NCBI GenBank assembly: GCA_020148045.1
Contig: JAHCRG010000007.1
Span: 22,914 to 86,913, forward strand
Direction: 5' to 3'
From: Patescibacteria group bacterium
GTDB lineage: Bacteria > Patescibacteriota > Minisyncoccia > Minisyncoccales > GWA2-38-27
DNA length: 64,000 bases
Part shown: in pieces, positions 7,322-63,962 of the stretch
Position numbering within the stretch: position 1 is the stretch's first letter
Layout: each line of letters begins with the position of its first letter
Made by a program: the position numbers and the translations under genes
Notes under the pieces: model-generated
Told to the model about the DNA's origin: nothing
Database searches by the model: none
Seen by the model: the letters and a program-made list of their open reading frames with translations, nothing else

Positions 7322-8304
7322 TGCAATCTATGCCTCCTTTTAAACCAATCGGAAAAGTATTTTTTTGAGGAAGAAATAATATTTTTCTTTAGGAATGTGG
7401 CAGATAATGCCTTATCTTGCGGACATGCCTCTATGCATTTTAAGCAGAGATTGCAGTTTTCTTTAAGGACATCTTTCTCTTTTTTCTCTAAATACACTTC
7501 TTTAATATCCATGGGGCACACGCGCCAACAATTTCCGCAACCAGTGCAAGAATCCGCCTGCTTTTTAAGCCGGGGAAGACCAATTCTACGAAATGTATCA
7601 AAGAGAGCTCCAACAGGACAGATAAGGCAAAAGATGCGATCTCGGAACATAATTCCTACTAATACAATCCCTGCCAAGGCCGAGGTAGCAATACTTGTCC
7701 AAAATCGTTGTATGCCAACAGTAAAATCAACGGCCTGGTTTAAGAAATTCCCTTCAAATGGCGGTAGAAATAGCTTAACCGGGCATATCCTGCAATATGG
7801 CGGGTCGATATCTCTGGGGAAATCGCTAATTAAGTAAAAGTGGACACCTAAGAAAAGTATTAGTAATATATATTTAACTATCCGCAAATTTCTCTTTGTC
7901 CTATAAGAGATTTGACACTCTCTAATTGAAAACCTTCTTCTCATTGAGGCAATCCAATCCTGAAATGTGCCGAATGGACAAGCCCAACCGCACCAGAATT
8001 TACTAAATATTAAAGCAACTACAAAGAAGCTTAGGAATAAACGTAAATATGCACCGGAACAACGCCAAATAATAGTATATCCGGGGAAAGGCATCATTCC
8101 TCTCTCCTTCTCCGGATCCATTTTTATTCCATATTGCAATCGCTGTAGTGGCAATAAATAACAACCGCCGCCTAAATAGCTGTCATTGTTAGAACATTGC
8201 TGAGCGGGAAAGAGATTGCCAGCCCGCAGCCCAAGATAACCACCATAAATTAAAAATAAAAAACTTAAAATTTGGATTAAATAACGAATTCGATAAACTT
8301 TCAT
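7315..8304 (-). CDS. NapH/MauN-type integral-membrane polyferredoxin
   Basis: 329 aa with TM helices, two CX3CP motifs (CGWACPFG, CLICPVG) and two ferredoxin motifs (CTGCGNCWRVCP, CNLCLKCIEACP). Confidence 0.8.
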   Translation of the reverse strand: MKVYRIRYLIQILSFLFLIYGGYLGLRAGNLFPAQQCSNNDSYLGGGCYLLPLQRLQYGIKMDPEKERGMMPFPGYTIIWRCSGAYLRLFLSFFVVALIFSKFWCGWACPFGTFQDWIASMRRRFSIRECQISYRTKRNLRIVKYILLILFLGVHFYLISDFPRDIDPPYCRICPVKLFLPPFEGNFLNQAVDFTVGIQRFWTSIATSALAGIVLVGIMFRDRIFCLICPVGALFDTFRRIGLPRLKKQADSCTGCGNCWRVCPMDIKEVYLEKKEKDVLKENCNLCLKCIEACPQDKALSATFLKKNIISSSKKYFSDWFKRRHRLQW

Positions 8305-10015: not shown

Positions 10016-11485
10016 TTAATTCTTGCCGATATTTAATCTCTTGTTTGCCGTGCTCAATAGATACAATATATACCTGTTGATTAAGACATACCCGCCGTAA
10101 AAGAATTTCCAAAGATTTGCTTTTCTGTATCTTAAATAAGATATAATCACTTTGGGCCTCAGGTAAAATTCACACATTGCTTTTCGCTGAAAATTTAGCA
10201 AATCCTTAGCGTCCATATCGCATGGGACATAGACAGGGTTACCACTGCAATCAGCCCAATCGTGCCAGGAAGTAAACTTTTCCGGCTCAAAAATAGAATC
10301 TGTATTTTTAAAGAGGTCTTCAAAGAACTTGGAGCCTGGATAGGGAACGGCAAGGTTGAATTTTGTAACATCGCAATTTAATTCTTTAGCAAACTTGATG
10401 GTCTCTTCACATGTCTCTTTTGTCTCCCCGGGTAAGCCTAAAATAAATGAGCCTAATGTATATATCTTCGATTTCTTAACAATCCTCATTGTCCTCCTTG
10501 CTTGCTCTAATGTAGTTCCTTTATTATTCCTATCTAAAACGGCCTGGTTTCCCGACTCAAGGCCAAACATGACCAGATGAACGCCTGCCCTCTTCATCAT
10601 CAGCAGTAATTCTTCATTTACTAAATCTACCCTGGTCTCTGTGCACCACTTAATCTTTTTATGCAGGCCTCTTTGAATCAGTTCTCTGCAAAATTGCAAA
10701 CCGAATTCTATAGAAAAAGGGAAATTGGTATCAAAAAAACCAAAATATCGGGCATCATATCTATTGCACATATATTCTAATTCTTTTATAATATCCTCGC
10801 TCTTTCTATAATTTGGCCTTGGATAAATTTTGTCCTGGGCGCAAAATGAACATCTATAAGCGCATCCCCTCGAGCCTAAAATTGGCAATGCCAACTGTTT
10901 ATCTATAATTGCAAGCGGAATATCTGTATAACGCCTAAGGTCAAAAAGATGCCATGCGGGATAAGGCAGTTCATCTAAATTTCTAATAAAAGGCCTGTCT
11001 GGATTGTGGGTTATAGAATTCCCATCTAGAAAACTAATGCCTCTTACACTGCGTAAATTGCCTTTTTTCTTAATCGCTAAAGCAAGCTCCAAAGTCGTAA
11101 CTTCGCCCTCTCCTCTCACAATAATATCCCCGGTTTTTTGCCCTAACAGTTCTTCTGCAAAGATTGTAGCATGGATGCCTCCTAATGCTATCGGGGCATT
11201 GCTAAATCCCCTTATTTGATTAACAAGTACTTTTACATTATTAATTGTCGGCGTAAGGCAAGAGAAACCTATAATTCCCGGATTATATTTTTTAATTTCG
11301 TCTAGAAGTCTTTTGTTATTCATCTTATTGGCAAATTGATCTATAGCCTTAACTTCTATGCCTGCTTTCTCAAGAACAGCGGCAATAGAAGCAATGCCAA
11401 AAGGAAGAATGGGGCGAAAAAAGCTTCTAAGTTTTTGGCTTTTTTCGACCAAAGCCGATGTAGGGTTTACTAATAATATTTTCAT
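10016..11485 (-). CDS. B12-binding-domain radical SAM enzyme (class B), paralog A1
   Basis: 489 aa. The N-terminal Rossmann B12-binding-like domain reads MKILLVNP...IIGFSCLTP...ALGGIHAT...IVRGEGE. The CX3CX2C motif lies in LGSRGCAYRCSFCAQD. It is closely similar to 12702..14198 (KWCTETRVD, AVPYPGSKFFED). Confidence 0.85.
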   Translation of the reverse strand: MKILLVNPTSALVEKSQKLRSFFRPILPFGIASIAAVLEKAGIEVKAIDQFANKMNNKRLLDEIKKYNPGIIGFSCLTPTINNVKVLVNQIRGFSNAPIALGGIHATIFAEELLGQKTGDIIVRGEGEVTTLELALAIKKKGNLRSVRGISFLDGNSITHNPDRPFIRNLDELPYPAWHLFDLRRYTDIPLAIIDKQLALPILGSRGCAYRCSFCAQDKIYPRPNYRKSEDIIKELEYMCNRYDARYFGFFDTNFPFSIEFGLQFCRELIQRGLHKKIKWCTETRVDLVNEELLLMMKRAGVHLVMFGLESGNQAVLDRNNKGTTLEQARRTMRIVKKSKIYTLGSFILGLPGETKETCEETIKFAKELNCDVTKFNLAVPYPGSKFFEDLFKNTDSIFEPEKFTSWHDWADCSGNPVYVPCDMDAKDLLNFQRKAMCEFYLRPKVIISYLRYRKANLWKFFYGGYVLINRYILYLLSTANKRLNIGKN

Positions 11486-11520
11486 AATTTATTATTACTT
11501 ATAGGAGTTTCCCTACCAAA

Positions 11521-12705
11521 TTAACCCCAATATTTAAAAATTTCGCCTGAAATAATCTCTTTCAAAAACCTGCTGTAATTATTAGCATCGTTTTGTTTAT
11601 ATTCAGGGTTAATCCTAACAGTTTGTTCGGCAATTTTTATACAATATCTGCAATCTTCGCAAGAATTGAGGTAGCAGTCTTCTTTCAAGAAATGGTCTAT
11701 AAAGCCATCTAACTTTCTATTGTCAATATAGACATCTAAATCTTTCAGCAGGCCTTTTTTTCTAACTAATTTAAATATATTTACCGCAAATGGATGGAAG
11801 AAGTATTTTATTTTATGGAGAAAATTTGGCCTTTTAAGCCATAGGCTCTTTGATGGATTCATAAACAGGTCATACAAGTTGCCATCGTGTTTCCTGTTTA
11901 AATAAGTATCTACAATAAAGGCGATGGCTTCGGTGGTCATATTCCTATCTACAACCTTGAATTTTTCAATGCCCATGTCTTCATAAACTGCAATATCCTC
12001 CGGCCTTATCCACGCCGAACGGATAAAATTTACTGGGTCGGCAATCATCTTGCTCCTGCACATAAACCGGCAATAATCGAACATAAAGATTCCCAGCTTA
12101 CTCGATGTTTGCGAACCGTGTGAACTAAGATTATGGTGGTAAAGAAATAACGGACAATCTTGGATGCAATTATCATTTACAATAAGTTGCAATTCGCATC
12201 TTACGCTTTCCTTAATCTTTTTCATCAATTTAAATCTGCGTGTCATCTCGGTTTGCGGCAAAGTGATTATTGAAGCCCCTAAGTCTTCCCAAAACTTGGC
12301 CTTAATTACCGAATTGACATGGGCAAAACAAGATACCGAAATTTCGAAATGGGGGTAATGCTTCCTTATCAACTGCGTAAGATAGGGAATTGCTACCACA
12401 ACTCCGTCTGCCTTAATTTCAGACAACCAAGTTAAAAGTTCATGTATTCTCTTCTGGCCAGACCCGGTCAATTCTCGACCGCCTATACAAGTAGAATTTA
12501 AGATATAATAAAATTTTAAGCTATTATTATGGATTTCACAGATGTGTTTCTTTATTTGCTTCTTTGTTACTTTTAGCGATATACAAGAAGGCCTTCCGCC
12601 TCCAAAAAAGTCCCTGTCCAATTTTCCATACACTGTGTCTATATTTGGTTTATTTATTTTCTTGATTAAATCGTTCTGCCAGTTTGTAGGAACCGTTAAC
12701 TTCAT
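11521..12705 (-). CDS. U32-peptidase-like (UbiU/UbiV/RlhA-type fold) protein, paralog B1
   Basis: The start was trimmed to the ATG at 12705, which forms an ATGA overlap with the upstream stop. The protein begins MKLTVPTNW. It has the TIM-barrel-like pattern ADGVVVAIPYLTQLIRKHYP and a Cys cluster region (NDNCIQDCP, DYCRFMCRS). It is a paralog of 14213..15265. Confidence 0.4.
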   Translation of the reverse strand: MKLTVPTNWQNDLIKKINKPNIDTVYGKLDRDFFGGGRPSCISLKVTKKQIKKHICEIHNNSLKFYYILNSTCIGGRELTGSGQKRIHELLTWLSEIKADGVVVAIPYLTQLIRKHYPHFEISVSCFAHVNSVIKAKFWEDLGASIITLPQTEMTRRFKLMKKIKESVRCELQLIVNDNCIQDCPLFLYHHNLSSHGSQTSSKLGIFMFDYCRFMCRSKMIADPVNFIRSAWIRPEDIAVYEDMGIEKFKVVDRNMTTEAIAFIVDTYLNRKHDGNLYDLFMNPSKSLWLKRPNFLHKIKYFFHPFAVNIFKLVRKKGLLKDLDVYIDNRKLDGFIDHFLKEDCYLNSCEDCRYCIKIAEQTVRINPEYKQNDANNYSRFLKEIISGEIFKYWG

Positions 12706-14212: not shown

Positions 14213-15265
14213 TCAAACTGTTTCGAAGAGTTTATTAATCTCTTTCAATAAGCATTCTTTTTTGGTCTGATCAACCGAGACCTCTACGCTGTCCATATAA
14301 AAGGTATCCTTTGTTAAATATATCTTTAACAGGGACTTAATATGCCTTTCCTTTGAAAGTACGCCATAGAGCTCTTTGCGATTGCAGAAATATAAGCATT
14401 TGAGGCCGGTCCTAATAAAAAGCGTGGGAAAAAATTTTAAGAGAATGCTAATAATCGAAGAATATCTACTTTCCGCAACCGAAGTGTTTACTAACCTAAA
14501 ACAATTGCCGTTATAGCTTTTTTGGGAATATGCCATCGCACAATTAATAATCCAGTTGGCAGGCTTGGTTCTTCCCCCCAGTTTAAGGAAATCAACCCCT
14601 ATCCCCTCATATTTTTTCACATCATTTGGGTAAATAAACCCCGTCTCTCTAAATAATGAGGGATTGTTTAATTTTAGCTTTAAGCACTTGAATATCCCTT
14701 TTTGAAAGTGCCCTGCGCTCTCTAAGTGCTCTCTCCAATAAGGGCAATTGGGAAGGCAGATGTTATTTGCCAAAAGCTTTATCTGTAAAGCTGTCTTTTG
14801 CTTGACCAGCCTGATAAACTCCAAATCGCTATTTTTAGTATAATCTAAGCAAATGACGTCACAGTCGAGTTCTTTAAATAGCATTGCCTCCTTAAGAGAA
14901 TCGATTTTGCAGGCAATGGAACTGCAGATTTTGAAAGGATATTCCTTCTTAACGAATGAAATAAAGCTGTAATTGGAGGCAGTTACCATATCCACATTGA
15001 TTTTGCTGAGTCTATCTAAAAGAGCAATCCTCTGTTTGGTAATAGTTATATTGGGATGATTTAGGACATAGTTAAATTTGATGCCTAATTCATGAGAGTA
15101 TTCTACATATTCTTTAAATCTTCCCGTATCAACTTTAGGCAAAGCGTACGAAGGCAAAACAGTTCCGCCGGCATCATTCTGTAAACTACCATAAGTATCG
15201 TGGACTGTGCCTTTCAGCTTTTCGAGAATCCTAAAGTCAAAGTTTGTGGGGGCGGATATCTTCAT
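14213..15265 (-). CDS. U32-peptidase-like protein, paralog B2
   Basis: 350 aa. MKISAPTNFDF and NNICLPNCPYWREHLESAGH align with MKLTVPTNW and NDNCIQDCPLFLYHHNLSSHG of 11521..12705. Confidence 0.4.
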   Translation of the reverse strand: MKISAPTNFDFRILEKLKGTVHDTYGSLQNDAGGTVLPSYALPKVDTGRFKEYVEYSHELGIKFNYVLNHPNITITKQRIALLDRLSKINVDMVTASNYSFISFVKKEYPFKICSSIACKIDSLKEAMLFKELDCDVICLDYTKNSDLEFIRLVKQKTALQIKLLANNICLPNCPYWREHLESAGHFQKGIFKCLKLKLNNPSLFRETGFIYPNDVKKYEGIGVDFLKLGGRTKPANWIINCAMAYSQKSYNGNCFRLVNTSVAESRYSSIISILLKFFPTLFIRTGLKCLYFCNRKELYGVLSKERHIKSLLKIYLTKDTFYMDSVEVSVDQTKKECLLKEINKLFETV

Positions 15266-54164: not shown

Positions 54165-54283
54165 TCTCCTCCCTCGAGAATACTCCCAAGATAGACAATC
54201 GTCCGGGCTCAACTTAGTTGACAGTTAACTAAATCATTACCGTTGCGGGGCAGCGGAAGGAATTTCACCTTCACTTCCTTTGT
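54165..54283 (-). promoter_or_regulatory. cobalamin riboswitch, short (variant/class-II-like) architecture
   Basis: The minus strand reads AAGGAAGTGAAGGTGAAATTCCTTCCGCTGCCCCGCAACGGTAATGA...GAGCCCGGACGATTGTC. This matches the conserved GGUGAAAUUCC...GCUGCCCCGCAAC.GUAA core and has a degenerate B12 box. It lacks the GCCACUG...GGGAAGGC peripheral element. Confidence 0.65.
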
Positions 54284-55084
54284 CTATCCGGCAAGTTGCT
54301 TTTTCCTCTCCTCTTCAGAAACTATAAATATATAAGGTTTAGAAGAAATTGGGTTTTTTTCTACTACCACAACCGTCTTGTATACCTCTTCAATAACTCG
54401 ATATTTCATCACCTCCTCAGGACTCCCTACCTTGTGGATTCTTCCTTGATTAATAAGAACTAAGCGATGGCAGTATTCGCTGGCCAAATTGAGGTCATGC
54501 AAAACCATAATTATCGTGAGCCCAAGTTCCTGGTTGAGCTTTTTGAGCAGGTCTAAAATCCCTACCTGATGGGTTATATCTAAATGCGTTGTAGGTTCGT
54601 CTAATAAAAGCAGCTTGGGTTCCTGGGCCAAAGCGCGGGAAATCAGGGCAAGCTGTCTTTCCCCGCCGCTTATCTGGCCCATAAGCTGGTCTTTAAGCTT
54701 GAGGGTATCAGTTTTGGCCATACACCTTTGGGCGACTCCTAAGTCCTTTCCTGTCTCTAAAAATTGAAATTTTTCAAAATGGGGAATCCTTCCTAAAAGC
54801 ACAAACTCCTCTACGCTCATAAACCCTCCGCCAAAACTTTGGGGAACTACCGCTACTTTCTTAGCTAATTCCTTAAATCCCATCTGCCAGATATCCCTGC
54901 CTTTTAAGAAAATTATACCTTTTTCCGGCTTAAGGATACGGGTTATAGCCCGAAGAAGCGTAGTCTTTCCTGAACCGTTAGGACCGATTATCCCCACAAT
55001 TTCTCTATCTTCTACCTTAAAATCGATATCTTGAAGAATAAATTTTGAATCGTATCCACAAGTTAGATTCTTAATTTTGAGCAT
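54284..55084 (-). CDS. btuD: ABC transporter ATP-binding protein (BtuD/FepC type)
   Basis: 266 aa with GPNGSGKTTLL, ISGGERQLALISRAL and LLLLDEPTTHLD. Confidence 0.8.
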   Translation of the reverse strand: MLKIKNLTCGYDSKFILQDIDFKVEDREIVGIIGPNGSGKTTLLRAITRILKPEKGIIFLKGRDIWQMGFKELAKKVAVVPQSFGGGFMSVEEFVLLGRIPHFEKFQFLETGKDLGVAQRCMAKTDTLKLKDQLMGQISGGERQLALISRALAQEPKLLLLDEPTTHLDITHQVGILDLLKKLNQELGLTIIMVLHDLNLASEYCHRLVLINQGRIHKVGSPEEVMKYRVIEEVYKTVVVVEKNPISSKPYIFIVSEEERKKQLAG

Positions 55085-56100
55085 TACCTTTCTCCCAAAA
55101 CAGTCTTCTTTTTAGTCAAGGCATAAACAAAAAGGCTTCCGCCCAATATGCCCGTAATTACACCCACGGGTAATTCCATAGGAGAAATGATGGTTCTGGC
55201 TAAAGTATCACAAAAGATTAAAAAACCCGCTCCACACAAGAATGAGCCAATTAAAAGAACCCGATGGTCGCTACCGACAAACATACGCATAAAATGGGGA
55301 ACTACCAAACCCACAAAGCCAATTATTCCCGCTATAGATACACTAAAACCTGTAAGCAAAGAGGCGATAATGAAAAGTAAGCGCTTTGTCTTTTCTACAT
55401 TGATACCCAAATGCAAGGCCTCTTCTTCGCCCAAAGAAAGGGCATTGAGGTCGAAACAAAAAAGGTAAGAACCAATCAAGCCAAAAATAGAGACTCCACA
55501 GGTCAATTTTATAAGAAACCAGTCGGGTTCCTCTAAGGACCCCATTATCCAGAAAACAATCCCGTGAAGGTCTTCTGTGCGCGAAATGGACATAATCAGC
55601 ATTATCAAAGATGAAGAGATAAAACTTATCATCACCCCTGTTAATAGGAGCCCTTGCATTTTTAATATGCCCCTTCTTACGCTTATTGAATAAACAAGTA
55701 TTATTACCGTAACCGAACCTAAAAAACCAAAAAGGGGCAAAGTCAAGACGCCCCAGGCCCGGTGTAATCTTAAGAGAATATTTAAACACACCCCGATTGC
55801 TGCTCCGCCTGAGATACCCAAGGTATATGGCTCAACTAAGGGATTGCGAAACATCCCTTGCAGGATTACACCCACCAGACTCAATGCCCCTCCGATAGCA
55901 AAACCTAAGATAATGCGGGGTAAACGAATATCAAAGAGGATGCTATATTCAGTAGTGCCTTTGCCTTCTGAAATTAATGAGGCAATTTTCTTAACAGGTA
56001 TCCCAGCCGGACCAATAGATAAAGAAAGAATGCCTATTCCTAAAAGGGCCCCTGCCAAAACCAATACCCAGAAAATCCAGCGAACTATTTTCTTATCCAT
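55084..56100 (-). CDS. btuC: FecCD-family ABC permease (BtuC type)
   Basis: 338 aa with about 9-10 TM helices and GFVGLVVPHFMRMFVGSDHRVLL. Confidence 0.8.
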   Translation of the reverse strand: MDKKIVRWIFWVLVLAGALLGIGILSLSIGPAGIPVKKIASLISEGKGTTEYSILFDIRLPRIILGFAIGGALSLVGVILQGMFRNPLVEPYTLGISGGAAIGVCLNILLRLHRAWGVLTLPLFGFLGSVTVIILVYSISVRRGILKMQGLLLTGVMISFISSSLIMLIMSISRTEDLHGIVFWIMGSLEEPDWFLIKLTCGVSIFGLIGSYLFCFDLNALSLGEEEALHLGINVEKTKRLLFIIASLLTGFSVSIAGIIGFVGLVVPHFMRMFVGSDHRVLLIGSFLCGAGFLIFCDTLARTIISPMELPVGVITGILGGSLFVYALTKKKTVLGER

Positions 56101-56959
56101 TTTGGAGATGTAAGATTTTAGCCATTTCCTCTAAAGCTTGAACAAAGCTTAGGGGCGTAGGACTACAAAAATTGTCAGAATCGACAATATAAATCCGATT
56201 ATTCTTTACAGCCTTTAAGCTCTTATATCTTCTCCAAATCTCCTTTTCCTCTTTCCCTACAAGGCCCATAGTTACAATAATTATGACATCGGGGTCATCT
56301 TTAAGGACTTTTTCTCTTGAGTAGCGGTTGTTCTTTGAACCTTGTGCGCTATTTATTCCCCCGGCAAATTCGATAAAGTCGTTAACAAAAGAGTCTTTGG
56401 TTACGGTAACTAAGGGCCTGGTTCCCAGTTGAATGAAAACTTTGGGTTTCTCAAATTCCTTAACCTTATTTTTTACAGAATCCACTTTGTCTCTGGCGAT
56501 GCCTATAACAGTTTTAGCCTCGTTTTCTTTGCCCACAATTCTGCCTAATTCCAAAAAATGTTCGCAAATCTCGCTGAAGTTTTTTGCCTCAGCAAAAGTA
56601 ACTACTTTTATTCCTAAATTTTTCAATTTCTCTTTTGCCTTTGGAGTGGTTAAAGATGTGGCCAATACCAAATCGGGCCGAAGAGCAACAATTTTTTCCA
56701 AATTAACTTCTATTGCTGTGCCTACCTTCTCTTTCCTTTTTGCCTCAAGCGGCTTTTGGCAATAAACTGAGCAGCCTATTAATCTATCTTCTATTCCTAA
56801 AATGTAGAGCTCTTCAGTTATAGCCGAACCTAAAGAAATTATTCTCTGCGGATAGTTGTCCTGCGCATAGGTTATAGCTGCGGCATATAAAAGCACAAGA
56901 ATGGCGAAACACCGGCATAGTAATAACTTTAATTTTTGATTTATGTGATAAACTGGCAT
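56093..56959 (-). CDS. btuF: periplasmic corrinoid/siderophore-type binding protein (BtuF-like)
   Basis: 288 aa with the signal peptide LLLCRCFAILVLLYAAAITYAQ and RIISLGSAITEELYILG...LRPDLVLA. Confidence 0.7.
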   Translation of the reverse strand: MPVYHINQKLKLLLCRCFAILVLLYAAAITYAQDNYPQRIISLGSAITEELYILGIEDRLIGCSVYCQKPLEAKRKEKVGTAIEVNLEKIVALRPDLVLATSLTTPKAKEKLKNLGIKVVTFAEAKNFSEICEHFLELGRIVGKENEAKTVIGIARDKVDSVKNKVKEFEKPKVFIQLGTRPLVTVTKDSFVNDFIEFAGGINSAQGSKNNRYSREKVLKDDPDVIIIVTMGLVGKEEKEIWRRYKSLKAVKNNRIYIVDSDNFCSPTPLSFVQALEEMAKILHLQNG

Positions 56960-57747
56960 TAGTCCTCTTTAAAAATTTCAGGATGAATAAATTTGGCCAA
57001 AATCTCCAGTCCCTTAACTGTCCTTGGTCCTGGCCGACAAACTAACTGCGCATCGATCTGATAAATCCGATTATTAAGATAGGCATCGGTATGTTGAAAG
57101 CGAGGATGATTCTGCGTATAGGATAATAAACCCATAGTTTCTCTATGCCCTTTAGAGGTAATTATAACTTGAGGGTTTTTCTTAATCACAACCTCTAATA
57201 AGTCATCGATGTTGTCTCTATCGATATCCCGCATAATATTTAATCCTCCTGCTACCTCGATTAACTTATTAATTGTGCAAGATTTTAGGGCAATGCACAA
57301 GGGATTGTGAGAACATATATAGCAAACCCTGGGTCGTGGGCTTATAGCTTTAGTTTTCTGATGTATCTTTTTAATCTTTTCTCCTATTTTCTTAGCCAAT
57401 GAAAGGGCCTTTCTTTGGCATCCAATAAGTTTGCCCACAAAGGATATGGCAGATGGGGCATCCAAGACTGTTTTTGTCTTTACCACATAAGTTGTTATCC
57501 CCTTAGCTCTTAATTTGGAAATAGCTCCTTTTCTTAAATCAATATCTGTAGCCAATACTAAATCCGGAGAAAGGGAAATTATCTTTTCTATATCCGGTGT
57601 AGAATAACCGCCAATCTTATCTATCAGCTTGACTTCTGGAGGATAATTACAACACCCGCTTACTGCCACAAGTTTACTGCCCTCTCCTAAGGCAAAAACA
57701 ATCTCAGTATTAGACGGTGCTAATGAGACAATTCTTTTAATGTTCAT
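56959..57747 (-). CDS. BtuF-like cobalamin-binding protein without signal peptide
   Basis: The start was trimmed to MNIKRIVSLAPSNTEIVFALGEG. The protein has LSPDLVLAT and RPGPRTVKGLEILAKFIHPE. It has no N-terminal hydrophobic segment in either start choice. Confidence 0.6.
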   Translation of the reverse strand: MNIKRIVSLAPSNTEIVFALGEGSKLVAVSGCCNYPPEVKLIDKIGGYSTPDIEKIISLSPDLVLATDIDLRKGAISKLRAKGITTYVVKTKTVLDAPSAISFVGKLIGCQRKALSLAKKIGEKIKKIHQKTKAISPRPRVCYICSHNPLCIALKSCTINKLIEVAGGLNIMRDIDRDNIDDLLEVVIKKNPQVIITSKGHRETMGLLSYTQNHPRFQHTDAYLNNRIYQIDAQLVCRPGPRTVKGLEILAKFIHPEIFKED

Positions 57748-58408
57748 TTTTAAATTTGAGTTCCAAAAACCAATGTTTATCTTTAAATATCTTCTTGTCA
57801 AAGATGAGTTCTATAGGCCCTTTAAAGATAGGGCCGTTGTAAACCAAACTGTGATACTCTCCCTCTTCTCCACAAAGGTCAACTTTCTTTAAAGAATTTA
57901 TGTCTTTTACAAATTCATTATCGACTTGGCGGCCTAACCATTCTTTACCTAAAGAGGATGCATCTGTGGCTACAACAATTGCCTTAAATTTTTGATCAAT
58001 AAATTCTTTAAGCAAATTTTCTCTTTTTTCTTTCCATAAGGGCAGTATCGGTTTTATATCTACATCTTTACATACCCTCTCTACCCAATCTCGGTGCTGT
58101 TGTAGGTCGATATCTCCAAAGATACCTGTATCTATACCTTTAGTCTTTAACTCTGAAACAGCTTTTTTGAATTCCTCTTCGTAAGTTTCCCAAGTAGTTT
58201 TTCTCTGAACAATAGGGATTCCTAAAGCCTGCGCTTGAATCTTGAGTAATGCTGCACTAACCCCGTGAGAACGGGAATGCTTGCCATCAACTGAAACCAT
58301 ATTTACCAGATAAGCAATATCCATTTTTGACCTTTGCGCTTTATAAAGTGCTAAGGCGCTTTCTTTGCCCCCACTCCAGCAACAAAATGCCTTTGTTTTT
58401 TTAGTCAT
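57737..58408 (-). CDS. PP-loop ATP pyrophosphatase, Dph6/MJ0570-like (diphthine-ammonia-ligase-type domain)
   Basis: The start was trimmed to the ATG at 58408, which forms an ATGA overlap with the upstream stop. The protein begins MTKKTKAFCCWSGGKESALALYKA. It also has GEEGEYHSLV. Confidence 0.6.
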   Translation of the reverse strand: MTKKTKAFCCWSGGKESALALYKAQRSKMDIAYLVNMVSVDGKHSRSHGVSAALLKIQAQALGIPIVQRKTTWETYEEEFKKAVSELKTKGIDTGIFGDIDLQQHRDWVERVCKDVDIKPILPLWKEKRENLLKEFIDQKFKAIVVATDASSLGKEWLGRQVDNEFVKDINSLKKVDLCGEEGEYHSLVYNGPIFKGPIELIFDKKIFKDKHWFLELKFKNEH

Positions 58409-59331
58409 TTTATCGGCGCTACCCAACCGCAGACAGGACAATGAAACGCTCCCCTGCTCATCCCTGCACTACAACCAGGGCATTGCTTTTCGCCTTTTTT
58501 AGCCTGAGGTATTGGTCCAATTACATCTTTATAAATCTGGTAATAATAAAAATGTTCTTTGTTTATAAATTTTATTGGATAGAATCGGCTTTTTTGTTTA
58601 AATTCTCTATCTGAAACCTTCGCCGTTATAATATCTCTTAATTTATTCATACCCGAGCCATACTCTAACGGCCTCTTATTCTGCCAAACAATATCTTTTG
58701 GTAAGGCATCTTGGAATGCCTTACGCAAAATCCACTTTCCCAAAAGTTTACCGTTTTCTTTTTTAATTTTGAGCTCCGGGCTAATCCTGAGAGAAAAATC
58801 AATAAGCTCTTTATCTAAAAAGGGCTGCGCTATTTTAATTTTAAAAAATTGCCCAATTTTATTAGAGCCAAATTTCATTCTGCGGGTTATTTTCTTAATA
58901 TAGGCTTCTAAGTCACCTATTTTTTGCATAAAATCGTAACCGGCAAAAAGTTCATCGCTTCCATCGCCGGTCATTACTGCATTAATCCCCAATTCTTGGG
59001 CCTTTTTTAAGCCGAAATATACTGTTAAATCATTGGGAATAGCTGGATCAAAGGTCTTGAGTATCTTTATTACCTCTGGAACTGCCTCTTGTGCCTCATC
59101 AATACTGACCTTGTTCTGAAAATGCTCTATTCTAAGAAGCCCGGCTAAAGAAGTAGCGAACTTTACATCTTTTCCCTTTGAGTTTAAACTAACTGTGATT
59201 GCTTTAACCCCAGAATCAAAACTAGCCAAAATAGCCGAGTCTAAGCCCCCAGAAAAAAGTAAAGCCGGGGTTTTGTTTTTCTGAATTGCCGTAGTCAATT
59301 TTGCTCTTAATTTTAAAACTATGTCTTTCAT
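58405..59331 (-). CDS. asparagine-synthetase-domain (AsnB C-terminal, PP-loop) protein lacking a glutaminase domain, with C-terminal zinc ribbon
   Basis: 308 aa with LLFSGGLDSAILAS, MTGDGSDELFAGYDFM and the C-terminal CPGCSAGMSRGAFHCPVCG. Confidence 0.65.
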   Translation of the reverse strand: MKDIVLKLRAKLTTAIQKNKTPALLFSGGLDSAILASFDSGVKAITVSLNSKGKDVKFATSLAGLLRIEHFQNKVSIDEAQEAVPEVIKILKTFDPAIPNDLTVYFGLKKAQELGINAVMTGDGSDELFAGYDFMQKIGDLEAYIKKITRRMKFGSNKIGQFFKIKIAQPFLDKELIDFSLRISPELKIKKENGKLLGKWILRKAFQDALPKDIVWQNKRPLEYGSGMNKLRDIITAKVSDREFKQKSRFYPIKFINKEHFYYYQIYKDVIGPIPQAKKGEKQCPGCSAGMSRGAFHCPVCGWVAPIK

Positions 59332-60368
59332 CTAATCTTTTTTAGAGCAGCAATAAGTTTCAAATTTTCTTTATGCGAACGCACAGCTATACGGATATAT
59401 TTATCGTTTAAATTTCTAAAATTGCTACAATCCCTGACGAGAATTCCTTTTTGGAGCAGCGATTTTTGTAAAGCCTTTGCGGTTATTCTGCCATTTTCAA
59501 TCTTTAGCAAAAGGAAATTTGTTACTGAAGGATAAAGCCTTAACCATTTTATTTTGGTCAATTCTCTAAAAAGAAATTGTCTCTGGTTTTCTATAAGTTT
59601 ATGGGTCTTTTTGATGTACTCTCTATCGTTTAAAATTAACTCTGCTGCTAATTGGGCTAAACAATTTGTGCTCCAGGGAGGCTGCTGCTGTCTTAACCGG
59701 GCGATAACCTCTTTATGGGCAACAAGATATCCGATTCTTAATCCCGGCAGGGCAAAAAATTTAGTAAAGCTACGCAGGACAATTATTTTTGTGCACTTTG
59801 TGGCCTTCCAGATGAATGTGTAATTCTTCTGGTCGGGTAAAAAATCCATAAACGCCTCGTCAATAACAAGTAATTTTTTAGGCAGTTTGTCATTTTCTAA
59901 AATAAGATTACCTGTGGGATTATTGGGATTGCAGAGAAAAGAAATATCTGCGCTGCCAAGCTGAGATATATTGAGGCGGAAGCCTTCTTTCTCTTTAAGT
60001 CTTACAAAGCGAATTTTACTCTTTACGCTTCTTGCCGCACGTTCATATTCCGAAAAGGCAGGTGTAGCTATACGGGTGGTCTTGGGCTTGAAAGCCGACA
60101 TAATAAGATAGATAAATTCCACAGAGCCATTGCCGGGAAGGACATTCTCTTTATCTATCCTCCAGTATTTAGCGATTTTTTGGGTAATATTGTTTGCTTT
60201 GGAATCAGGATAATGCAGGATTCTATCAAAATTTTTATAAATAGCTTTCTTCGCGCTTTGCGGCAAACCCAAAGGATTGATATTTGCGCTAAAGTCGATT
60301 ATTTCTTTTCCGTATCTTTGCCTAACCTCGTAGATATTCCCGCCGTGCAAAAAATCTACATAACCCAT
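59328..60368 (-). CDS. cobD: L-threonine-O-3-phosphate decarboxylase (PLP, aminotransferase class I/II fold)
   Basis: 346 aa with FLHGGNIYE, DFSANINPLG, HYPD and SFTKFFALPGLRIGY. Confidence 0.8.
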   Translation of the reverse strand: MGYVDFLHGGNIYEVRQRYGKEIIDFSANINPLGLPQSAKKAIYKNFDRILHYPDSKANNITQKIAKYWRIDKENVLPGNGSVEFIYLIMSAFKPKTTRIATPAFSEYERAARSVKSKIRFVRLKEKEGFRLNISQLGSADISFLCNPNNPTGNLILENDKLPKKLLVIDEAFMDFLPDQKNYTFIWKATKCTKIIVLRSFTKFFALPGLRIGYLVAHKEVIARLRQQQPPWSTNCLAQLAAELILNDREYIKKTHKLIENQRQFLFRELTKIKWLRLYPSVTNFLLLKIENGRITAKALQKSLLQKGILVRDCSNFRNLNDKYIRIAVRSHKENLKLIAALKKIR

Positions 60369-61312
60369 TTTAACAATACTCCTAAGGAAAGCATAAGCAA
60401 AGATGTCACAAAACTCATAGCCAGGGCCTCATTTATTAATGAAGGCCTTGCCGGCCTTCCATCTTTTCCAAGGTATGGTTTTTCCAAAAGTTTGCCCTGA
60501 TATGTAGAAGGCCCTCCTAACCTTACCCCCAGGGCAGCGGCCATAGCGGCAATTGAAACCCCGCTATTTGGAGAAGGGTGTTTCCTGCCGTCCCTTAACA
60601 TCGTCTTAAAAGCCAAGCGAACGTCATTACGAGGGTTCACAATGATAGAAGAAATTGATAGCAGGAACCCGGAGATTCGCGCCGGAATAAAATTGGCGAT
60701 GTCATCTACTTTGGCCGCAAACCAGCCAAAACGAAGGTACTCCTCATTTCTATATCCTACCATCGAATCAAGTGTGTTTATGCTCTTGTAAGCAAAAGCC
60801 AAAACGGGCCCCCCTAAAATCAGATAAATTAGAGGTGCCACAATCCCGTCATTGGCGCTCTCGGCAATGCTTTCTATTGTAGCCGCTGTTATTTTTTCTT
60901 TGCTCAAATTTTGGGTATCTCTGCCTACAATTTTAGAAAGTTGCCTGCGGGCTTCAACTATAGAGTCTTTTTCTACCTCTTTCAAAATTGCTTTCGCTTT
61001 AACCCGTAAATCCCTTACGGAAAGAGAGCAGTAACCTAAATAGACCCAGGCCAAATTCCCCAGGAAAGGGTTCAATTTCCTTGAGAGTTCTATAAACAAA
61101 CAGGCAAAACAAGCACTTATTCCCATGACACTCAAGGTCAATATTGCCCCTTTCATTCGCTCTTTCCGTTGACCAGCGTTTCCCCTCAACCTATCATCCA
61201 AGAAATTTATCAGTCTACCCATCCCTCTTACGGGATGGGCAAACCCTTCCGGGTCACCGAAAACCAAATCAGCGATATAAGAGGAAATTACCAGGAGCAT
61301 TATATTCGGCAA
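60356..61312 (-). CDS. cbiB: adenosylcobinamide-phosphate synthase
   Basis: 318 aa membrane protein with DLVFGDPEGFAHPVRGMGRLI and DSMVGYRNEEY. Confidence 0.85.
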   Translation of the reverse strand: MPNIMLLVISSYIADLVFGDPEGFAHPVRGMGRLINFLDDRLRGNAGQRKERMKGAILTLSVMGISACFACLFIELSRKLNPFLGNLAWVYLGYCSLSVRDLRVKAKAILKEVEKDSIVEARRQLSKIVGRDTQNLSKEKITAATIESIAESANDGIVAPLIYLILGGPVLAFAYKSINTLDSMVGYRNEEYLRFGWFAAKVDDIANFIPARISGFLLSISSIIVNPRNDVRLAFKTMLRDGRKHPSPNSGVSIAAMAAALGVRLGGPSTYQGKLLEKPYLGKDGRPARPSLINEALAMSFVTSLLMLSLGVLLKWVM

Positions 61313-62034
61313 ATCAATGCAAAGAAAAGAACGGCTATTTCCGCAACCTCACTGGTTGCGCCGATTGTATCTCCGGTCATTCCCCCGATTCTTTTCTTTA
61401 CATAAGTTATAAATAAACATATTGGGAGTAAAGAAAGGGCTAACAAAATAATTCCCTTCAGTTCCATCAATAATAAGAATAAGGCCATAGTAAGCAGGCC
61501 TCCGAGAAAAAATTCTTTTTTACTATTATATTCTATAAAATATTCTGCTTTCCCTTCTTTGCGGGCATAGTTAGATGTGAAGCACGCCAAGACCTGAGAC
61601 CACCTGGCAAATACAACCATCGTAATTAATGCTCTCCAAAGAATATTTTGGGGAAGACTGGCTATTAAACTAAATTTTAAGAGTAATAAAGTTACTATCC
61701 CAATTACCCCCATTACGCCGACCCGGCTATCCCGCATTATCTCTAATATCTTTTCTTTGGGCTTGGCGCCATAGAAACCATCGCAGGTATCGGCGAAACC
61801 ATCCAGATGCACGCCACCCGTTATGACAATTAACCCAATTAGAAGCAACACAACCGTAACTAAATGTGGCAAAGAACTAAAAATAAGCAAAATTAAAACT
61901 AACAACAGCCCTATGAATGCACCGACTATGGGGAAATAAATAAGCGCGGCGCCAAAGTCTTTTCTTTTTACCCCGGACTTAATCTTTATAGGTAGAATAG
62001 TTAAAAATTGCAAGGCTATGAGAAATTGCTTCAT
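61300..62034 (-). CDS. cobS: adenosylcobinamide-GDP ribazoletransferase (cobalamin 5'-phosphate synthase)
   Basis: 244 aa membrane protein with MKQFLIALQFLTILPI, HLDGFADTCDG and GGMTGDTIGA. Confidence 0.85.
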   Translation of the reverse strand: MKQFLIALQFLTILPIKIKSGVKRKDFGAALIYFPIVGAFIGLLLVLILLIFSSLPHLVTVVLLLIGLIVITGGVHLDGFADTCDGFYGAKPKEKILEIMRDSRVGVMGVIGIVTLLLLKFSLIASLPQNILWRALITMVVFARWSQVLACFTSNYARKEGKAEYFIEYNSKKEFFLGGLLTMALFLLLMELKGIILLALSLLPICLFITYVKKRIGGMTGDTIGATSEVAEIAVLFFALICRI

Positions 62035-62039
62035 TCTCT

Positions 62040-63119
62040 CTACTCTCTACTCTTTACCTTTTCAGATACTCCGGCACTCTTAAAAGTGGCCATCTGTGTC
62101 ATTATCTTTATGCCTGCTTCCACTAAACTTATCGCCAGAGCGCTGCCGGTGCCTTCTCCCAATCTTAAGTCTAAGTCCAGAAGCGGTTTTAAACCCATAT
62201 AATCCAGGACAATTTTATGGCCTTGCTCTACTGAACAATGCGCGGCTATAAGATACTCTTTAACCCTGGGTTCTAAATGACAGGCTATTAATGCGCTGGC
62301 TCCTGAGATAAAGCCATCGATTACTATAGGTATCCGGCGGGATGCGCCGGCCAAAATTACACCGGCTAACCCCCCTATTTCAAATCCGCCTACTTTAGAG
62401 AGCACATCAAGCGCATCCCGCGCATCCGGCTTATTTATTTCCAGGGCCTTTTTAATCACGGCGATTTTATTTAAAAAGGTTTCCTCGCCGATTCCCGTTC
62501 CTTTTCCTGTTAAAACTTCTACCGGTTTATTTGTAAAACAGGCAGCGATTGCCGAAGAAGCAGTGGTATTGCCGATTCCCATATCGCCTGTTCCGATTAT
62601 GTCTATGCCGTTCAGTAATTCTTCTTCAAATACTTCTATACCGTTTTCTATGCATTTAACGGCCTCTTCTCTGGTCATCGCCGGGTCTTTCGCCATATTT
62701 TTCGTCCCAGAATTTATCTTTTTGTCTTTAAAATTTTGCAATTTGCAATTTGCAATTTGCAATTTTGATGCTACTCCCATATCAACCACAACGACCCTGG
62801 CCCCCACGTGCCCGGCCAATACATTTATTCCGGCACCGCCTTCAATAAAGTTATATATCATCTGCGGCGTCACCTCTTGCGGAAAGGCGCTCACCCCCTC
62901 TTCCACAATACCGTGGTCGCCGGCCATAGTAAATATAACCTTATTCTTAATCGGGGGGTTAACATTGCCTGTAATCTCTACTGCTCTTTTAGCGAGTTCC
63001 TCCAGCCGGCCAAGGCTGCCTTGCGGTTTAGTGAGGCTGTCCAGCCTTTTCTGGGTCACTTCTGCCAGACCATGGTCGAGCTTCTCAATTTTATCTATAA
63101 CCTCTTTTAATTTTTGCAT
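62040..63119 (-). CDS. cobT: nicotinate-nucleotide--dimethylbenzimidazole phosphoribosyltransferase
   Basis: 359 aa with KPQGSLGRLEELA, GTGDMGIGNTT and LGEGTGSALA. It contains the heptamer DNA repeat in a loop region. Confidence 0.85.
   Translation of the reverse strand: MQKLKEVIDKIEKLDHGLAEVTQKRLDSLTKPQGSLGRLEELAKRAVEITGNVNPPIKNKVIFTMAGDHGIVEEGVSAFPQEVTPQMIYNFIEGGAGINVLAGHVGARVVVVDMGVASKLQIANCKLQNFKDKKINSGTKNMAKDPAMTREEAVKCIENGIEVFEEELLNGIDIIGTGDMGIGNTTASSAIAACFTNKPVEVLTGKGTGIGEETFLNKIAVIKKALEINKPDARDALDVLSKVGGFEIGGLAGVILAGASRRIPIVIDGFISGASALIACHLEPRVKEYLIAAHCSVEQGHKIVLDYMGLKPLLDLDLRLGEGTGSALAISLVEAGIKIMTQMATFKSAGVSEKVKSRE
62735..62765. repeat. heptanucleotide tandem repeat (TTTGCAA) x 4.4 inside cobT
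   Basis: The plus strand reads tttgcaa tttgcaa tttgcaa tttgcaa ttt. On the minus strand it is translated as KLQIANCKLQNF. Confidence 0.9.
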
Positions 63120-63645
63120 CTTTGTCTCCTTTTATCTTCAGCGGAATACCTGATTGCATAAAAATAACCTCATCTGCTTCTTTTGCAAACATTTGATTAG
63201 CCAACCCCAGCAAATCCCGGAATCTCCTGGCCAATAAATTATCGGCAACTATGCCGCCCCCCACTTCATTGGAGACCAAAATCGTCACGGCTTTGCTCCG
63301 GGATATGCGCGGGGTGAGTTTTCTTAAAGCTCTTAGGATTCCGTTATCCGTTAAATCCTCCAACAATAGATTTGATACAAATAGACCTAAGCAATCAATT
63401 ATTACTACATTGTATTTATTTTTTAATTTATCGAACAACAAACCTATGTCCTTGCCTTCTTCGACAATTTTCCAGTAGCGGGGCCTTGAATCCCTGTGTA
63501 GCTTTATCCTCTTTTTTATCTCCCCGTCCGGATTGATGCAGGTAGCGATATAGGCGACCTTGCGGCTTAAATCTCTGGCAAGTTTTGTTGCATAACGGCT
63601 TTTGCCGCTCCTTGCGCCACCCAAGATAAAGATGAATTTTCTCAT
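63091..63645 (-). CDS. cobU: bifunctional adenosylcobinamide kinase / adenosylcobinamide-phosphate guanylyltransferase
   Basis: The start was trimmed to MRKFIFILGGARSGKS (P-loop) at 63645. The track's extension runs through the riboswitch terminator. Confidence 0.8.
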   Translation of the reverse strand: MRKFIFILGGARSGKSRYATKLARDLSRKVAYIATCINPDGEIKKRIKLHRDSRPRYWKIVEEGKDIGLLFDKLKNKYNVVIIDCLGLFVSNLLLEDLTDNGILRALRKLTPRISRSKAVTILVSNEVGGGIVADNLLARRFRDLLGLANQMFAKEADEVIFMQSGIPLKIKGDKDAKIKRGYR

Positions 63646-63670
63646 AACGTTTACTGCCCTTTTTGGCGCC

Positions 63671-63706
63671 AACAAAAAGGCCCTTGACACATTTTGCGTC
63701 AAGGGC
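63671..63706 (-). terminator. intrinsic terminator forming the expression platform of the upstream cobalamin riboswitch
   Basis: The minus strand reads GCCCTTGAC-GCAAAATGT-GTCAAGGGC followed by CTTTTTGTT. An upstream AGGGCTG can pair with the left arm CAGCCCT as an antiterminator. Confidence 0.7.
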
Positions 63707-63781
63707 TGCACCCGAATTTACTTAGGCCCTAAATAAAAATACCTTTCAGCCCTATCCCTCGTAGAGCTCAAAGCATCTTCA

Positions 63782-63937
63782 CAATTTGGGCAGGTCTTCT
63801 GACTTCCGGCCTTCTACTTATCAGGCCTTCCCATCCTTAAAAGGACAGTGGCTAACTCTGACTTTCGCTACCGGTTACAGCGACGGGACCGCGCTCGATT
63901 CTCACGAGCTTCCCTATTAAGCCGCAACACCCAATCT
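63782..63937 (-). promoter_or_regulatory. cobalamin riboswitch aptamer (classical architecture)
   Basis: The minus strand reads TTAATAGGGAAGCTCGTGAGAATCGAGCGCGGTCCCGTCGCTGTAACC...GCCACTG...GGGAAGGC...AGTCAGAAGACCTGCCC (B12 box). The P1 candidate is TTGGG/CCCAA. Confidence 0.85.
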
Positions 63938-63962
63938 GCGATATATTAAATTGTCAATCTTA

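What the first reader, a model, noticed from the sequence alone, without database searches (positions are those of the whole stretch)
57737..59331. Two PP-loop ATP-pyrophosphatase genes (AsnB-domain and Dph6/MJ0570-like) embedded in a B12-riboswitch operon
Two ATGA-coupled ORFs lie between cobD (threonine-phosphate decarboxylase) and the BtuF-like genes.
- **58405..59331:** this has the asparagine-synthetase C-domain motifs SGGLDS and GDGSDELFAGY. It has no N-terminal glutaminase domain, and it has a C-terminal CxxC...CxxC ribbon.
- **57737..58408:** this has the SGGKES-type loop (CCWSGGKESALA) of the diphthine-ammonia-ligase/MJ0570 family.

Both families adenylate a carboxylate and amidate it (established knowledge). 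Known corrin amidations use the unrelated CbiA/CbiP (CobB/CobQ) enzymes. Their presence under cobalamin-riboswitch control suggests a non-canonical step. Possibilities are re-amidation of salvaged, partially deamidated corrinoids, or making or attaching an alternative linker or lower ligand. All of these roles are inference.
Basis: partly seen in the sequence, partly recalled or inferred. Interest (0 to 1): 0.55.

Follow-up and report, generated by a model that had tools for sequence, protein, structure and literature searches.

The report
PP-loop amidoligase pair in B12 salvage
Two ATP-using "carboxylate-to-amide" enzymes sit inside a vitamin-B12-controlled salvage operon: one belongs to a family linked to B12 salvage by a 2012 prediction, and the other is an undescribed partner that appears to stand in for the usual enzyme that amidates the B12 ring, though no activity has been measured.

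Summary
Both genes, their motifs and the ATGA overlaps are real, and they lie in an operon behind a 110-bit cobalamin riboswitch.

- **DPH (57737-58408):** a member of the "DUF71-B12" subgroup. De Crecy-Lagard et al. 2012 linked this subgroup to B12 salvage; its chemistry is still untested.
- **ASN (58405-59331):** an asparagine-synthetase C-domain without a glutaminase domain, plus a zinc ribbon. No curated family covers it, and I found no paper on it.
- **Context:** of 58 ASN loci of at least 9 kb, taken from species genomes of more than eight phyla, 53 carry cobamide uptake or assembly genes. DPH is found in 48 of 50 ASN genomes. ASN-DPH and DPH-BtuF-like fusions exist.
- **Key test:** in an evenly drawn Omnitrophota sample, all 16 CbiB-encoding genomes have either ASN (5) or CbiP (11), never both and never neither.

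My best reading is that these are ammonia-dependent corrinoid side-chain amidoligases, with ASN plus DPH standing in for CbiP in organisms that do not make the corrin ring. This is inference only.

CbiZ sits in the same locus as ASN in seven loci, usually with DPH. That weakens the 2012 idea that DPH replaces CbiZ.

Earlier follow-ups of this scan reached similar readings on other genomes.

The parts
63772..63949 (-). Cobalamin riboswitch (RF00174) at the head of the operon
   Evidence: cmscan 110.2 bits against a gathering score of 31.5, full-length model match
63091..63711 (-). cobU (cobinamide kinase / guanylyltransferase)
   Evidence: PF02283, E 6.1e-52
62040..63119 (-). cobT (lower-ligand phosphoribosyltransferase)
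   Evidence: PF02277, E 3.9e-136
61300..62034 (-). cobS (cobamide synthase)
   Evidence: PF02654, E 4.1e-58
60356..61312 (-). cbiB (adenosylcobinamide-phosphate synthase)
   Evidence: PF03186, E 6.8e-99
59328..60368 (-). cobD (L-threonine-O-3-phosphate decarboxylase)
   Evidence: TIGR01140, 322.9 bits, above the cut-off of 290.55
58405..59331 (-). ASN: asparagine-synthetase C-domain-only PP-loop adenylating enzyme with a C-terminal Zn ribbon. Proposed corrinoid side-chain amidoligase and functional stand-in for CbiP.
   Evidence: PF00733. AlphaFold model pLDDT 86.4; best PDB match 1ct9, TMq 0.73. Conserved family. Context and complementarity with CbiP.
57737..58408 (-). DPH: DUF71-B12 subgroup PP-loop ATPase (Dph6/MJ0570 fold)
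   Evidence: PF01902. DLCGExGE[YF]H motif with invariant His186, matching the subgroup signature in PMC3541065. Fusions to BtuF-like, ASN, CobA, CobT and CbiC domains.
56959..57801 (-). BtuF-like binding protein without a signal peptide. Its type is fused to DPH in other genomes, so it may be a cytoplasmic corrinoid carrier.
   Evidence: PF01497. No hydrophobic N-terminus, unlike its neighbour. DPH-PF01497 fusions at L014:4962-6398 and in P0241, P0242, P0244.
56093..56959 (-). btuF with signal peptide
   Evidence: PF01497; hydrophobic N-terminus
55084..56100 (-). btuC-type permease
   Evidence: Clusters with locus genes annotated PF01032 FecCD
54284..55084 (-). btuD-type ATPase
   Evidence: Clusters with locus genes annotated PF00005
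52152..54212 (-). TonB-dependent receptor
   Evidence: Clusters with locus genes annotated Plug + TonB_dep_Rec

Best explanation
Both proteins are adenylate-forming PP-loop enzymes that act in the cytoplasm on imported corrinoids. Each would activate a free side-chain carboxylate of the corrin as an acyl-AMP and then amidate it with free ammonia, since neither has a glutaminase domain.

ASN, which almost never occurs without DPH, fills the operon slot and the phyletic niche of cobyric acid synthase CbiP. In this organism, which makes no corrin ring, ASN plus DPH would complete the amidation of a scavenged, incompletely amidated corrinoid to the cobyric-acid stage. CbiB and CobD would then add the aminopropanol-phosphate linker, and CobU, CobT and CobS would build the nucleotide loop.

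DPH also has a narrower role of its own, because it occurs alone in uptake-only clusters. That role is probably re-amidation of one kind of deamidated side chain on complete corrinoids.

**Shown:** the folds and motifs, the operon and riboswitch context, the fusions, and the phyletic complementarity.

**Inferred:** the substrate, the sites amidated, and the use of ammonia.
For: 1. **Family chemistry.** SGGLDS and SGGKES PP-loops are present. ASN keeps the GxGSDE loop and the Lys that aligns with AsnB K449 (K219, invariant). ASN folds like the AsnB synthetase domain. DPH matches PDB 3rjz and 2d13.
2. **Context.** An unbiased clustering of neighbouring ORFs around 84 ASN loci ranks DPH, btuD, btuC, btuF, the TonB receptor, cobT, cobS, cobU, cobD, cobA and cbiB on top. 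Of 58 loci of at least 9 kb, 53 carry at least one cob/btu gene and 48 carry at least three. A riboswitch lies upstream in 10 of 16 loci scanned.
3. **Pairing.** PF01902 is found in 48 of 50 ASN genomes. ASN-DPH fusions exist (P0037, P0243).
4. **Links to corrinoid-handling proteins.** DPH is fused to signal-less BtuF-like domains, CobA, a CbiC domain and CobT.
5. **ASN carriers do not make the ring.** A true CbiP is found in only 3 of 50 ASN genomes. The window's own genome (97.9% complete) has no GATase_3, CbiA, CbiC or CbiZ.
6. **Operon slot.** Omnitrophota operons read cobD-CbiP-cbiB-DPH-btuFCD where this window reads cbiB-cobD-ASN-DPH-btuF. The CbiP-carrying genomes tested have neither CbiA nor CbiC, so amidation during salvage is a real theme in these lineages.
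7. **Complementarity.** In 121 evenly drawn Omnitrophota genomes, the 16 with CbiB split into 5 with ASN and 11 with CbiP. None has both and none has neither. No genome in the whole sample has both ASN and CbiP.
Against: - No enzyme activity has been measured anywhere for either family, as far as the searchable literature shows.
- About 17 of 50 ASN genomes lack both CbiB and CobD. In those genomes ASN cannot be feeding CbiB.
- ASN and CbiP do coexist in G008 (in two separate operons), in G039 (adjacent genes) and in archaeon G048, and they lie close together in L026.
- DPH occurs without ASN in 10 of about 16 Omnitrophota genomes that carry a B12-type DPH, and with CbiP in 3. Its own reaction is therefore not defined by the CbiP analogy.
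- The complementarity comes from related genomes, which are not independent data points.
- Many genomes used are metagenome assemblies of unknown completeness.
- The pool of incompletely amidated corrinoids in these habitats is assumed, not shown.
Confidence: 0.45

Rival explanations
1. DUF71-B12 (here with ASN) does the job of bacterial CbiZ. It would open or remodel imported cobamides or cobinamide to cobyric acid, or give another route for salvaging pseudo-B12. This is the hypothesis of de Crecy-Lagard et al. 2012.
For: The paper reports that nearly all CbiB-encoding genomes carry CbiZ or DUF71-B12, and that the two are strictly anticorrelated in bacteria in the 2012 genome set. The window's genome has CbiB but no CbiZ. 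DPH often lies next to cbiB.
Against: - CbiZ lies in the same locus as ASN in 7 of 80 loci (L005, L013, L022, L037, L062, L071, L077), usually with DPH as well. CbiZ is found in 9 of 50 ASN genomes, six of them bacterial.
- ASN and DPH occur in about 17 genomes without CbiB or CobD. DPH also occurs in uptake-only clusters in genomes where no CobS was found. In both cases a cobyric-acid product could not be used.
- PP-loop enzymes build bonds through adenylates. Amide hydrolysis needs no ATP (established knowledge of the superfamily).
Confidence: 0.1
2. The pair works on the nucleotide loop rather than the ring. It might ligate the linker amine to the f-carboxylate (helping or replacing CbiB), make the linker precursor, or make or activate a lower ligand.
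For: ASN and DPH are translationally coupled to cobD and cbiB in this window. DPH-CobT fusions exist (P0248, P0249). AsnB-like enzymes can use amines other than ammonia, for example beta-lactam synthetase, which appears among the fold matches.
Against: - ASN co-occurs with CbiB in about 30 of 50 genomes, so it does not replace CbiB.
- ASN is also present where both CbiB and CobD are missing.
- DPH occurs in genomes where no CobS was found.
- The perfect ASN-or-CbiP split among CbiB genomes points to the step before CbiB, not to CbiB's own step.
Confidence: 0.13
3. The enzymes modify a peptide or protein rather than a corrinoid. The target could be the CbpA peptide that accompanies the radical-SAM enzyme CbpB in some of these operons, or a transport protein.
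For: Dph6 acts on a protein, and AsnB-like enzymes cyclise lasso peptides (weak NCBIfam hits). In about 9 loci a CbpB gene (TIGR04163, 678.7 bits) and a conserved CbpA peptide lie between or beside ASN and DPH.
Against: CbpA and CbpB are missing from this window and its genome and from about 90% of ASN loci. CbpB also occurs in CbiP-type operons that have no ASN. It therefore looks like a separate accessory module.
Confidence: 0.07

Closest known systems
DUF71-B12 subgroup of the DUF71/COG2102 (MJ0570/Dph6) PP-loop ATPases (de Crecy-Lagard et al., Biol Direct 2012, PMC3541065)
   Same: The gene at 57737-58408 has the PF01902 domain. It carries the subgroup's motif with His in place of Dph6's Glu188 (GEEGEYH here). 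It clusters with btuFCD and cbiB, as the paper describes.
   Different: - The paper does not describe an AsnB-like partner in B12 clusters. It mentions only full AsnB-DUF71 fusions in a few archaea, which it reads as an ammonia supply for Dph6.
- Its CbiZ-equivalence idea fits poorly with the CbiZ co-occurrence found here.
- The function was still listed as unknown in 2016 (PMC5041015).
Asparagine synthetase B, synthetase domain (PDB 1ct9), and beta-lactam / carbapenam synthetases
   Same: Same fold (TMq 0.73, 26-27% identity), PP-loop, GxGSDE loop and K449-equivalent lysine.
   Different: - ASN has no N-terminal glutaminase domain.
- It has an added C-terminal Cys4 ribbon.
- The AsnB segment around D384-R387 is changed, with a 3-residue deletion and Arg replaced by Ser. 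That these AsnB residues bind aspartate is my recollection, not something I tested.
- ASN scores far below the AsnB cut-offs (152 against 499 bits).
Cobyric acid synthase CbiP/CobQ (and CbiA/CobB)
   Same: CbiP occupies the same operon slot as ASN, next to cbiB and cobD. It shows a complementary phyletic pattern among CbiB-encoding genomes. Both would amidate corrin carboxylates using ATP.
   Different: The two are unrelated in sequence and mechanism. CbiP and CbiA are P-loop enzymes with a GATase_3 glutaminase domain, and they phosphorylate rather than adenylate the carboxylate (established knowledge). ASN and DPH have no glutaminase domain. Unlike CbiP, ASN nearly always needs DPH alongside it.
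CbpA/CbpB 'cob operon peptide' system (NCBIfam TIGR04164 / TIGR04163)
   Same: It is found beside ASN and DPH in some relatives' operons.
   Different: It is absent from this window and genome and also occurs with CbiP-type operons. It is a separate module.

Membership tests
PP-loop ATP pyrophosphatase superfamily | SGGxDS-type PP-loop near the N-terminus of a Rossmann-like domain | tested here: met
   SGGLDS in ASN (S27-G28-G29-D31 invariant) and SGGKES in DPH (S12-G13-G14-K15 invariant). Fold match to AsnB. Sequence match to 3rjz and 2d13.
Asparagine synthetase B (glutamine-hydrolysing) | N-terminal class-II glutaminase domain joined to the synthetase domain | tested here: not met
   The 308-aa protein aligns only to AsnB residues 209-504. 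PF00733 is the only Pfam hit. It scores 152.4 bits against a cut-off of 499 for PRK09431, and 105 against 267 for TIGR01536.
DUF71-B12 subgroup | PF01902 domain with an ENGE[FY]H-type motif (His replacing Dph6 Glu188) | tested here: met
   The window has DLCGEEGEYH. The pattern D-x-C-G-E-x-G-E-[YF]-H has an invariant His in all 23 sequences. The signature is taken from PMC3541065.
DUF71-B12 subgroup | Physical clustering with B12 transport genes and/or cbiB | tested here: met
   In the window it lies between cobD/ASN and btuF. The same holds in relatives.
DUF71-B12 subgroup | Anticorrelation with CbiZ in bacteria, as reported in 2012 | tested here: inconclusive
   The window's genome lacks CbiZ. 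However, CbiZ shares the locus with ASN in 7 loci, usually with DPH, and is present in 6 bacterial ASN genomes.
Dph6 diphthine-ammonia ligase | EGG[ED]xE motif and a score above the equivalog cut-off | tested here: not met
   The motif is replaced by EEGEYH. TIGR03679 scores 137.7 bits against a cut-off of 197.3.
CbiP/CobQ cobyric acid synthase | Sequence membership (TIGR00313; CbiA-type P-loop domain plus GATase_3) | tested here: not met
   ASN and DPH have no such domains. The genome has no GATase_3 hit at all. Only a functional analogy is proposed.
CbiP/CobQ cobyric acid synthase | Catalytic activity: amidation of corrin carboxylates b, d, e and g | not testable with these tools
   Requires enzyme assays or complementation.
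CbpA/CbpB peptide system | A TIGR04163 radical-SAM enzyme and a CbpA peptide in the locus | tested here: not met
   No genome hit exceeds the cut-off (best 67 bits against 375). No CbpA motif is present in the window.

The most novel reading that the evidence does not exclude
ASN plus DPH form a complete, glutamine-independent corrin amidation system based on adenylation. This system would have displaced CbiP (and perhaps CbiA) in many uncultured anaerobes that do not make the ring. It would let even a 0.82-Mb-genome bacterium finish corrin intermediates leaked by other organisms, such as cobyrinic acid or its partial amides. That would be a previously unrecognised tier of B12 cross-feeding.
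Probability: 0.3. Interest if true: 0.75.

Novelty: new variant of a known kind. Interest (0 to 1): 0.6.

Why it matters
All textbook amidations of the corrin ring are done by CbiA and CbiP. If a pair of PP-loop adenylating enzymes does this job in organisms that only salvage, three things follow.

- The function of DUF71-B12, open since 2012, gets a concrete and testable answer.
- Genome-based predictions of who can use which B12 precursors would change. Many "cobinamide salvagers" could in fact use earlier, incompletely amidated corrinoids.
- It would be a clean example of non-homologous enzyme displacement in cofactor synthesis.

The families are widespread in uncultured Omnitrophota, Nitrospirota, Planctomycetota, Desulfobacterota, Chloroflexota and archaea.

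Tried and rejected
- **Complex prediction, ASN + DPH**: no verdict (score 0.00). This is not evidence either way.
- **CbpA/CbpB in the window**: absent, so the peptide-modification reading was set aside for this locus.
- **Own-phylum cross-tabulation**: ASN was found in none of 150 other genomes, so that sample was useless for co-occurrence. I switched to the Omnitrophota sample.
- **PF07685 as a CbiA/CbiP marker:** too unspecific in the control genomes, so I used TIGR00313 and TIGR00379 instead.
- **Literature searches** for a characterised function of either family: only the 2012 prediction and citations of it turned up.
- **Idea that ASN supplies ammonia to DPH** (by analogy with the AsnB-DUF71 fusions in PMC3541065): rejected, because ASN has no glutaminase domain.
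- **L-threonine kinase role:** considered and set aside, because PP-loop enzymes are not known to phosphorylate hydroxyls (established knowledge) and because ASN and DPH occur without CobD.
- **Protein Atlas search**: returned only AsnB-like clusters, mostly archaeal, with no functional lead.
Both were corrected and re-sent.
Full report
**What is there.**

On the minus strand a cobalamin riboswitch (63772-63949, 110 bits) heads a tightly packed gene string. In order it holds cobU, cobT, cobS, cbiB, cobD, ASN (58405-59331), DPH (57737-58408), a BtuF-like gene without a signal peptide, a normal btuF, btuC, btuD and a TonB-dependent receptor.

ASN matches only PF00733. It carries SGGLDS and GDGSDELFAGY, and it ends in a Cys4 ribbon that is invariant in 21 homologues. 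DPH matches PF01902 and carries SGGKES. The cobD/ASN and ASN/DPH junctions are ATGA overlaps.

**The Dph6-like gene is a published family.**

A literature search found de Crecy-Lagard et al. 2012 (PMC3541065). That paper split DUF71/COG2102 into true Dph6 and a "DUF71-B12" subgroup. The subgroup clusters with btuFCD and cbiB, and it carries ENGE[FY]H where Dph6 has EGG[ED]xE.

The window protein has GEEGEYH, and the His is invariant in my alignment of 23 relatives. It scores below the Dph6 equivalog cut-off. It is therefore a DUF71-B12 member.

The paper cautiously proposed a CbiZ-like role. A 2016 review still lists the function as unknown. I found no later characterisation.

**The AsnB-like gene is not described.**

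It folds as the AsnB synthetase domain (pLDDT 86.4; 1ct9 TMq 0.73). It keeps the K449-equivalent lysine but has no glutaminase domain, and the AsnB D384-R387 segment is altered. No NCBIfam model reaches its cut-off.

Homologues of 56-80% identity are numerous in metagenomes. The 2012 paper mentions only full-length AsnB-DUF71 fusions in a few archaea, which it reads as an ammonia supply for Dph6.

**Recurrence.**

A scan of one genome per prokaryotic species returned 80 loci. They come from Omnitrophota, Nitrospirota, Planctomycetia, Desulfobacterota, Chloroflexota, Latescibacterota, Spirochaetales, Clostridia and several archaeal groups.

I clustered all neighbouring ORFs without prior labels. 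The commonest neighbours were DPH, btuD, btuC, btuF, the TonB receptor, cobT, cobS, cobU, cobD, cobA, cbiB and cobC.

By tblastn, 53 of 58 loci of at least 9 kb hold at least one cob/btu gene, and 48 hold at least three. RF00174 lies upstream on the same strand in 10 of 16 loci scanned, and in L055 it sits directly in front of ASN. PF01902 is present in 48 of 50 ASN genomes.

Several fusions exist:
- ASN-DPH (P0037, P0243);
- DPH with a signal-less BtuF-like domain (L014:4962-6398, P0241, P0242, P0244);
- DPH-CobA, DPH-CobT and DPH-CbiC.

The window's own signal-less BtuF-like gene directly follows DPH. It is the unfused form of the DPH-BtuF fusion.

**Which step?**

ASN carriers are overwhelmingly organisms that do not make the ring. 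A true CbiP is found in 3 of 50. The window's genome is 0.82 Mb and 97.9% complete, and it has no GATase_3, CbiA, CbiC or CbiZ.

CbiZ sits in the same locus as ASN in seven loci, usually with DPH, and occurs in nine ASN genomes. This argues against simple CbiZ equivalence. CbiB and CobD are jointly missing from about 17 ASN genomes.

Operons in Omnitrophota that carry DPH but not ASN fall into three kinds:
- a minimal kind, cobA-btuFCD-DPH-receptor, in genomes where no CobS was found;
- btuFCD-cobC-cobUTS-DPH;
- cobUTS-cobD-CbiP-cbiB-DPH-btuFCD-cobA-receptor.

In the third kind, CbiP sits exactly where ASN sits in this window. The genomes tested that carry this kind (three from the Omnitrophota sample, plus G008) have no CbiA or CbiC. 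CbiP is therefore acting in salvage there.

**The decisive tabulation.**

I used 121 evenly drawn Omnitrophota genomes of at least 80% completeness. This sample was not chosen by ASN. Six have ASN, 22 have CbiP, 16 have CbiB, and none has both ASN and CbiP.

All 16 CbiB genomes have exactly one of the two: five have ASN and eleven have CbiP. With fixed margins, a perfect split has a chance of 1 in 4368. Relatedness among the genomes inflates this figure.

DPH accompanies ASN in at least five of the six ASN genomes. In the sixth, ASN lies at a contig end. DPH accompanies only 3 of the 11 genomes that have both CbiP and CbiB. So ASN appears to need DPH, while CbiP does not.

**Reading.**

The simplest account is that ASN plus DPH together do what CbiP does. 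They would complete the amide set of an imported, incompletely amidated corrinoid before CbiB acts, by adenylation and free ammonia. DPH alone would have a narrower amidating or repair role on imported corrinoids.

There are counter-observations. ASN occurs without CbiB in some lineages. ASN and CbiP coexist in three of the 50 ASN genomes and lie close together in L026. No biochemistry exists. I put this reading at about 0.45.

The rivals are a CbiZ-like remodelling role, a role in the linker or lower ligand, and peptide modification through the accessory CbpA/CbpB module. That module is absent here. The complex prediction gave no verdict.

**Relation to earlier scan notes.**

After reaching these conclusions I found that follow-ups on other genomes had reported the same gene pair with similar readings. 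This report adds four things:
- the evenly sampled ASN/CbiP/CbiB tabulation;
- the three operon types;
- the CbiZ co-occurrence;
- the link between the signal-less BtuF-like gene and the DPH-BtuF fusions.

Noticed in passing
window 56959-57801: The BtuF-like gene right after DPH has no signal peptide, unlike almost all btuF genes in related loci. The same type is fused to the C-terminus of DPH in L014 and in P0241, P0242 and P0244, and it stands alone in L013:7931-8689. It may be a cytoplasmic corrinoid carrier.
   Followed up: partly
whole genome G000 (window is C1:22914-86913): The genome is only 0.82 Mb and 97.9% complete. ASN was not found in 150 other genomes sampled from its phylum, all 0.5-1.2 Mb. 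The salvage operon therefore looks unusual for the lineage and may have been acquired laterally. No CobA/BtuR-type adenosyltransferase (PF02572) was found in the genome.
   Followed up: partly
L001, L002, L005, L006, L007, L014, L016, L052 (for example L016:6706-6822 and 6895-8274): The CbpA peptide (conserved ...RKKCKAxGTGLSHY[IV]LxDKK) and the CbpB radical-SAM/SPASM maturase (TIGR04163) are inserted between or beside ASN and DPH, often with one or two small activase-like radical-SAM genes. CbpB also occurs in CbiP-type operons (L104-L106). Its function in B12 operons is unknown.
   Followed up: partly
L096, L104, L105, L106 (Omnitrophota): CbiP is embedded in uptake/salvage operons of genomes with no CbiA or CbiC. 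In addition, 11 of 22 CbiP-positive Omnitrophota genomes had no CbiB hit. This suggests CbiP itself has a salvage or repair role outside de novo synthesis.
   Followed up: partly
L040:about 14257-14445 and G022:C3:92550-92738: Short ORFs (94-127 aa) match only the last 63 positions of the CbiB profile and lie next to DPH. They could be remnants or a stand-alone CbiB C-terminal piece.
   Followed up: no
L063:1392-2672 (Methanosarcinales MAG): A ThiC-family radical-SAM gene (PF01964, BzaF/ThiC-like) lies divergent from the archaeal ASN homologue. Purine genes (purE, purC, purM-like) recur upstream of ASN loci in Dehalococcoidia, Syntrophales and one Nitrospirota genome. This may be mere synteny.
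   Followed up: no
window 54165-54283: Another first-stage note proposes a second cobalamin riboswitch here. The Rfam gathering-threshold scan of the whole window reported only the copy at 63772-63949.
   Followed up: no
L103:about 10300-11800 (G300:C3:73304-73957): A 487-490 aa ORF carries the DPH domain directly after cobT. It may be a further DPH fusion, perhaps with CobS. I did not scan its domains.
   Followed up: no
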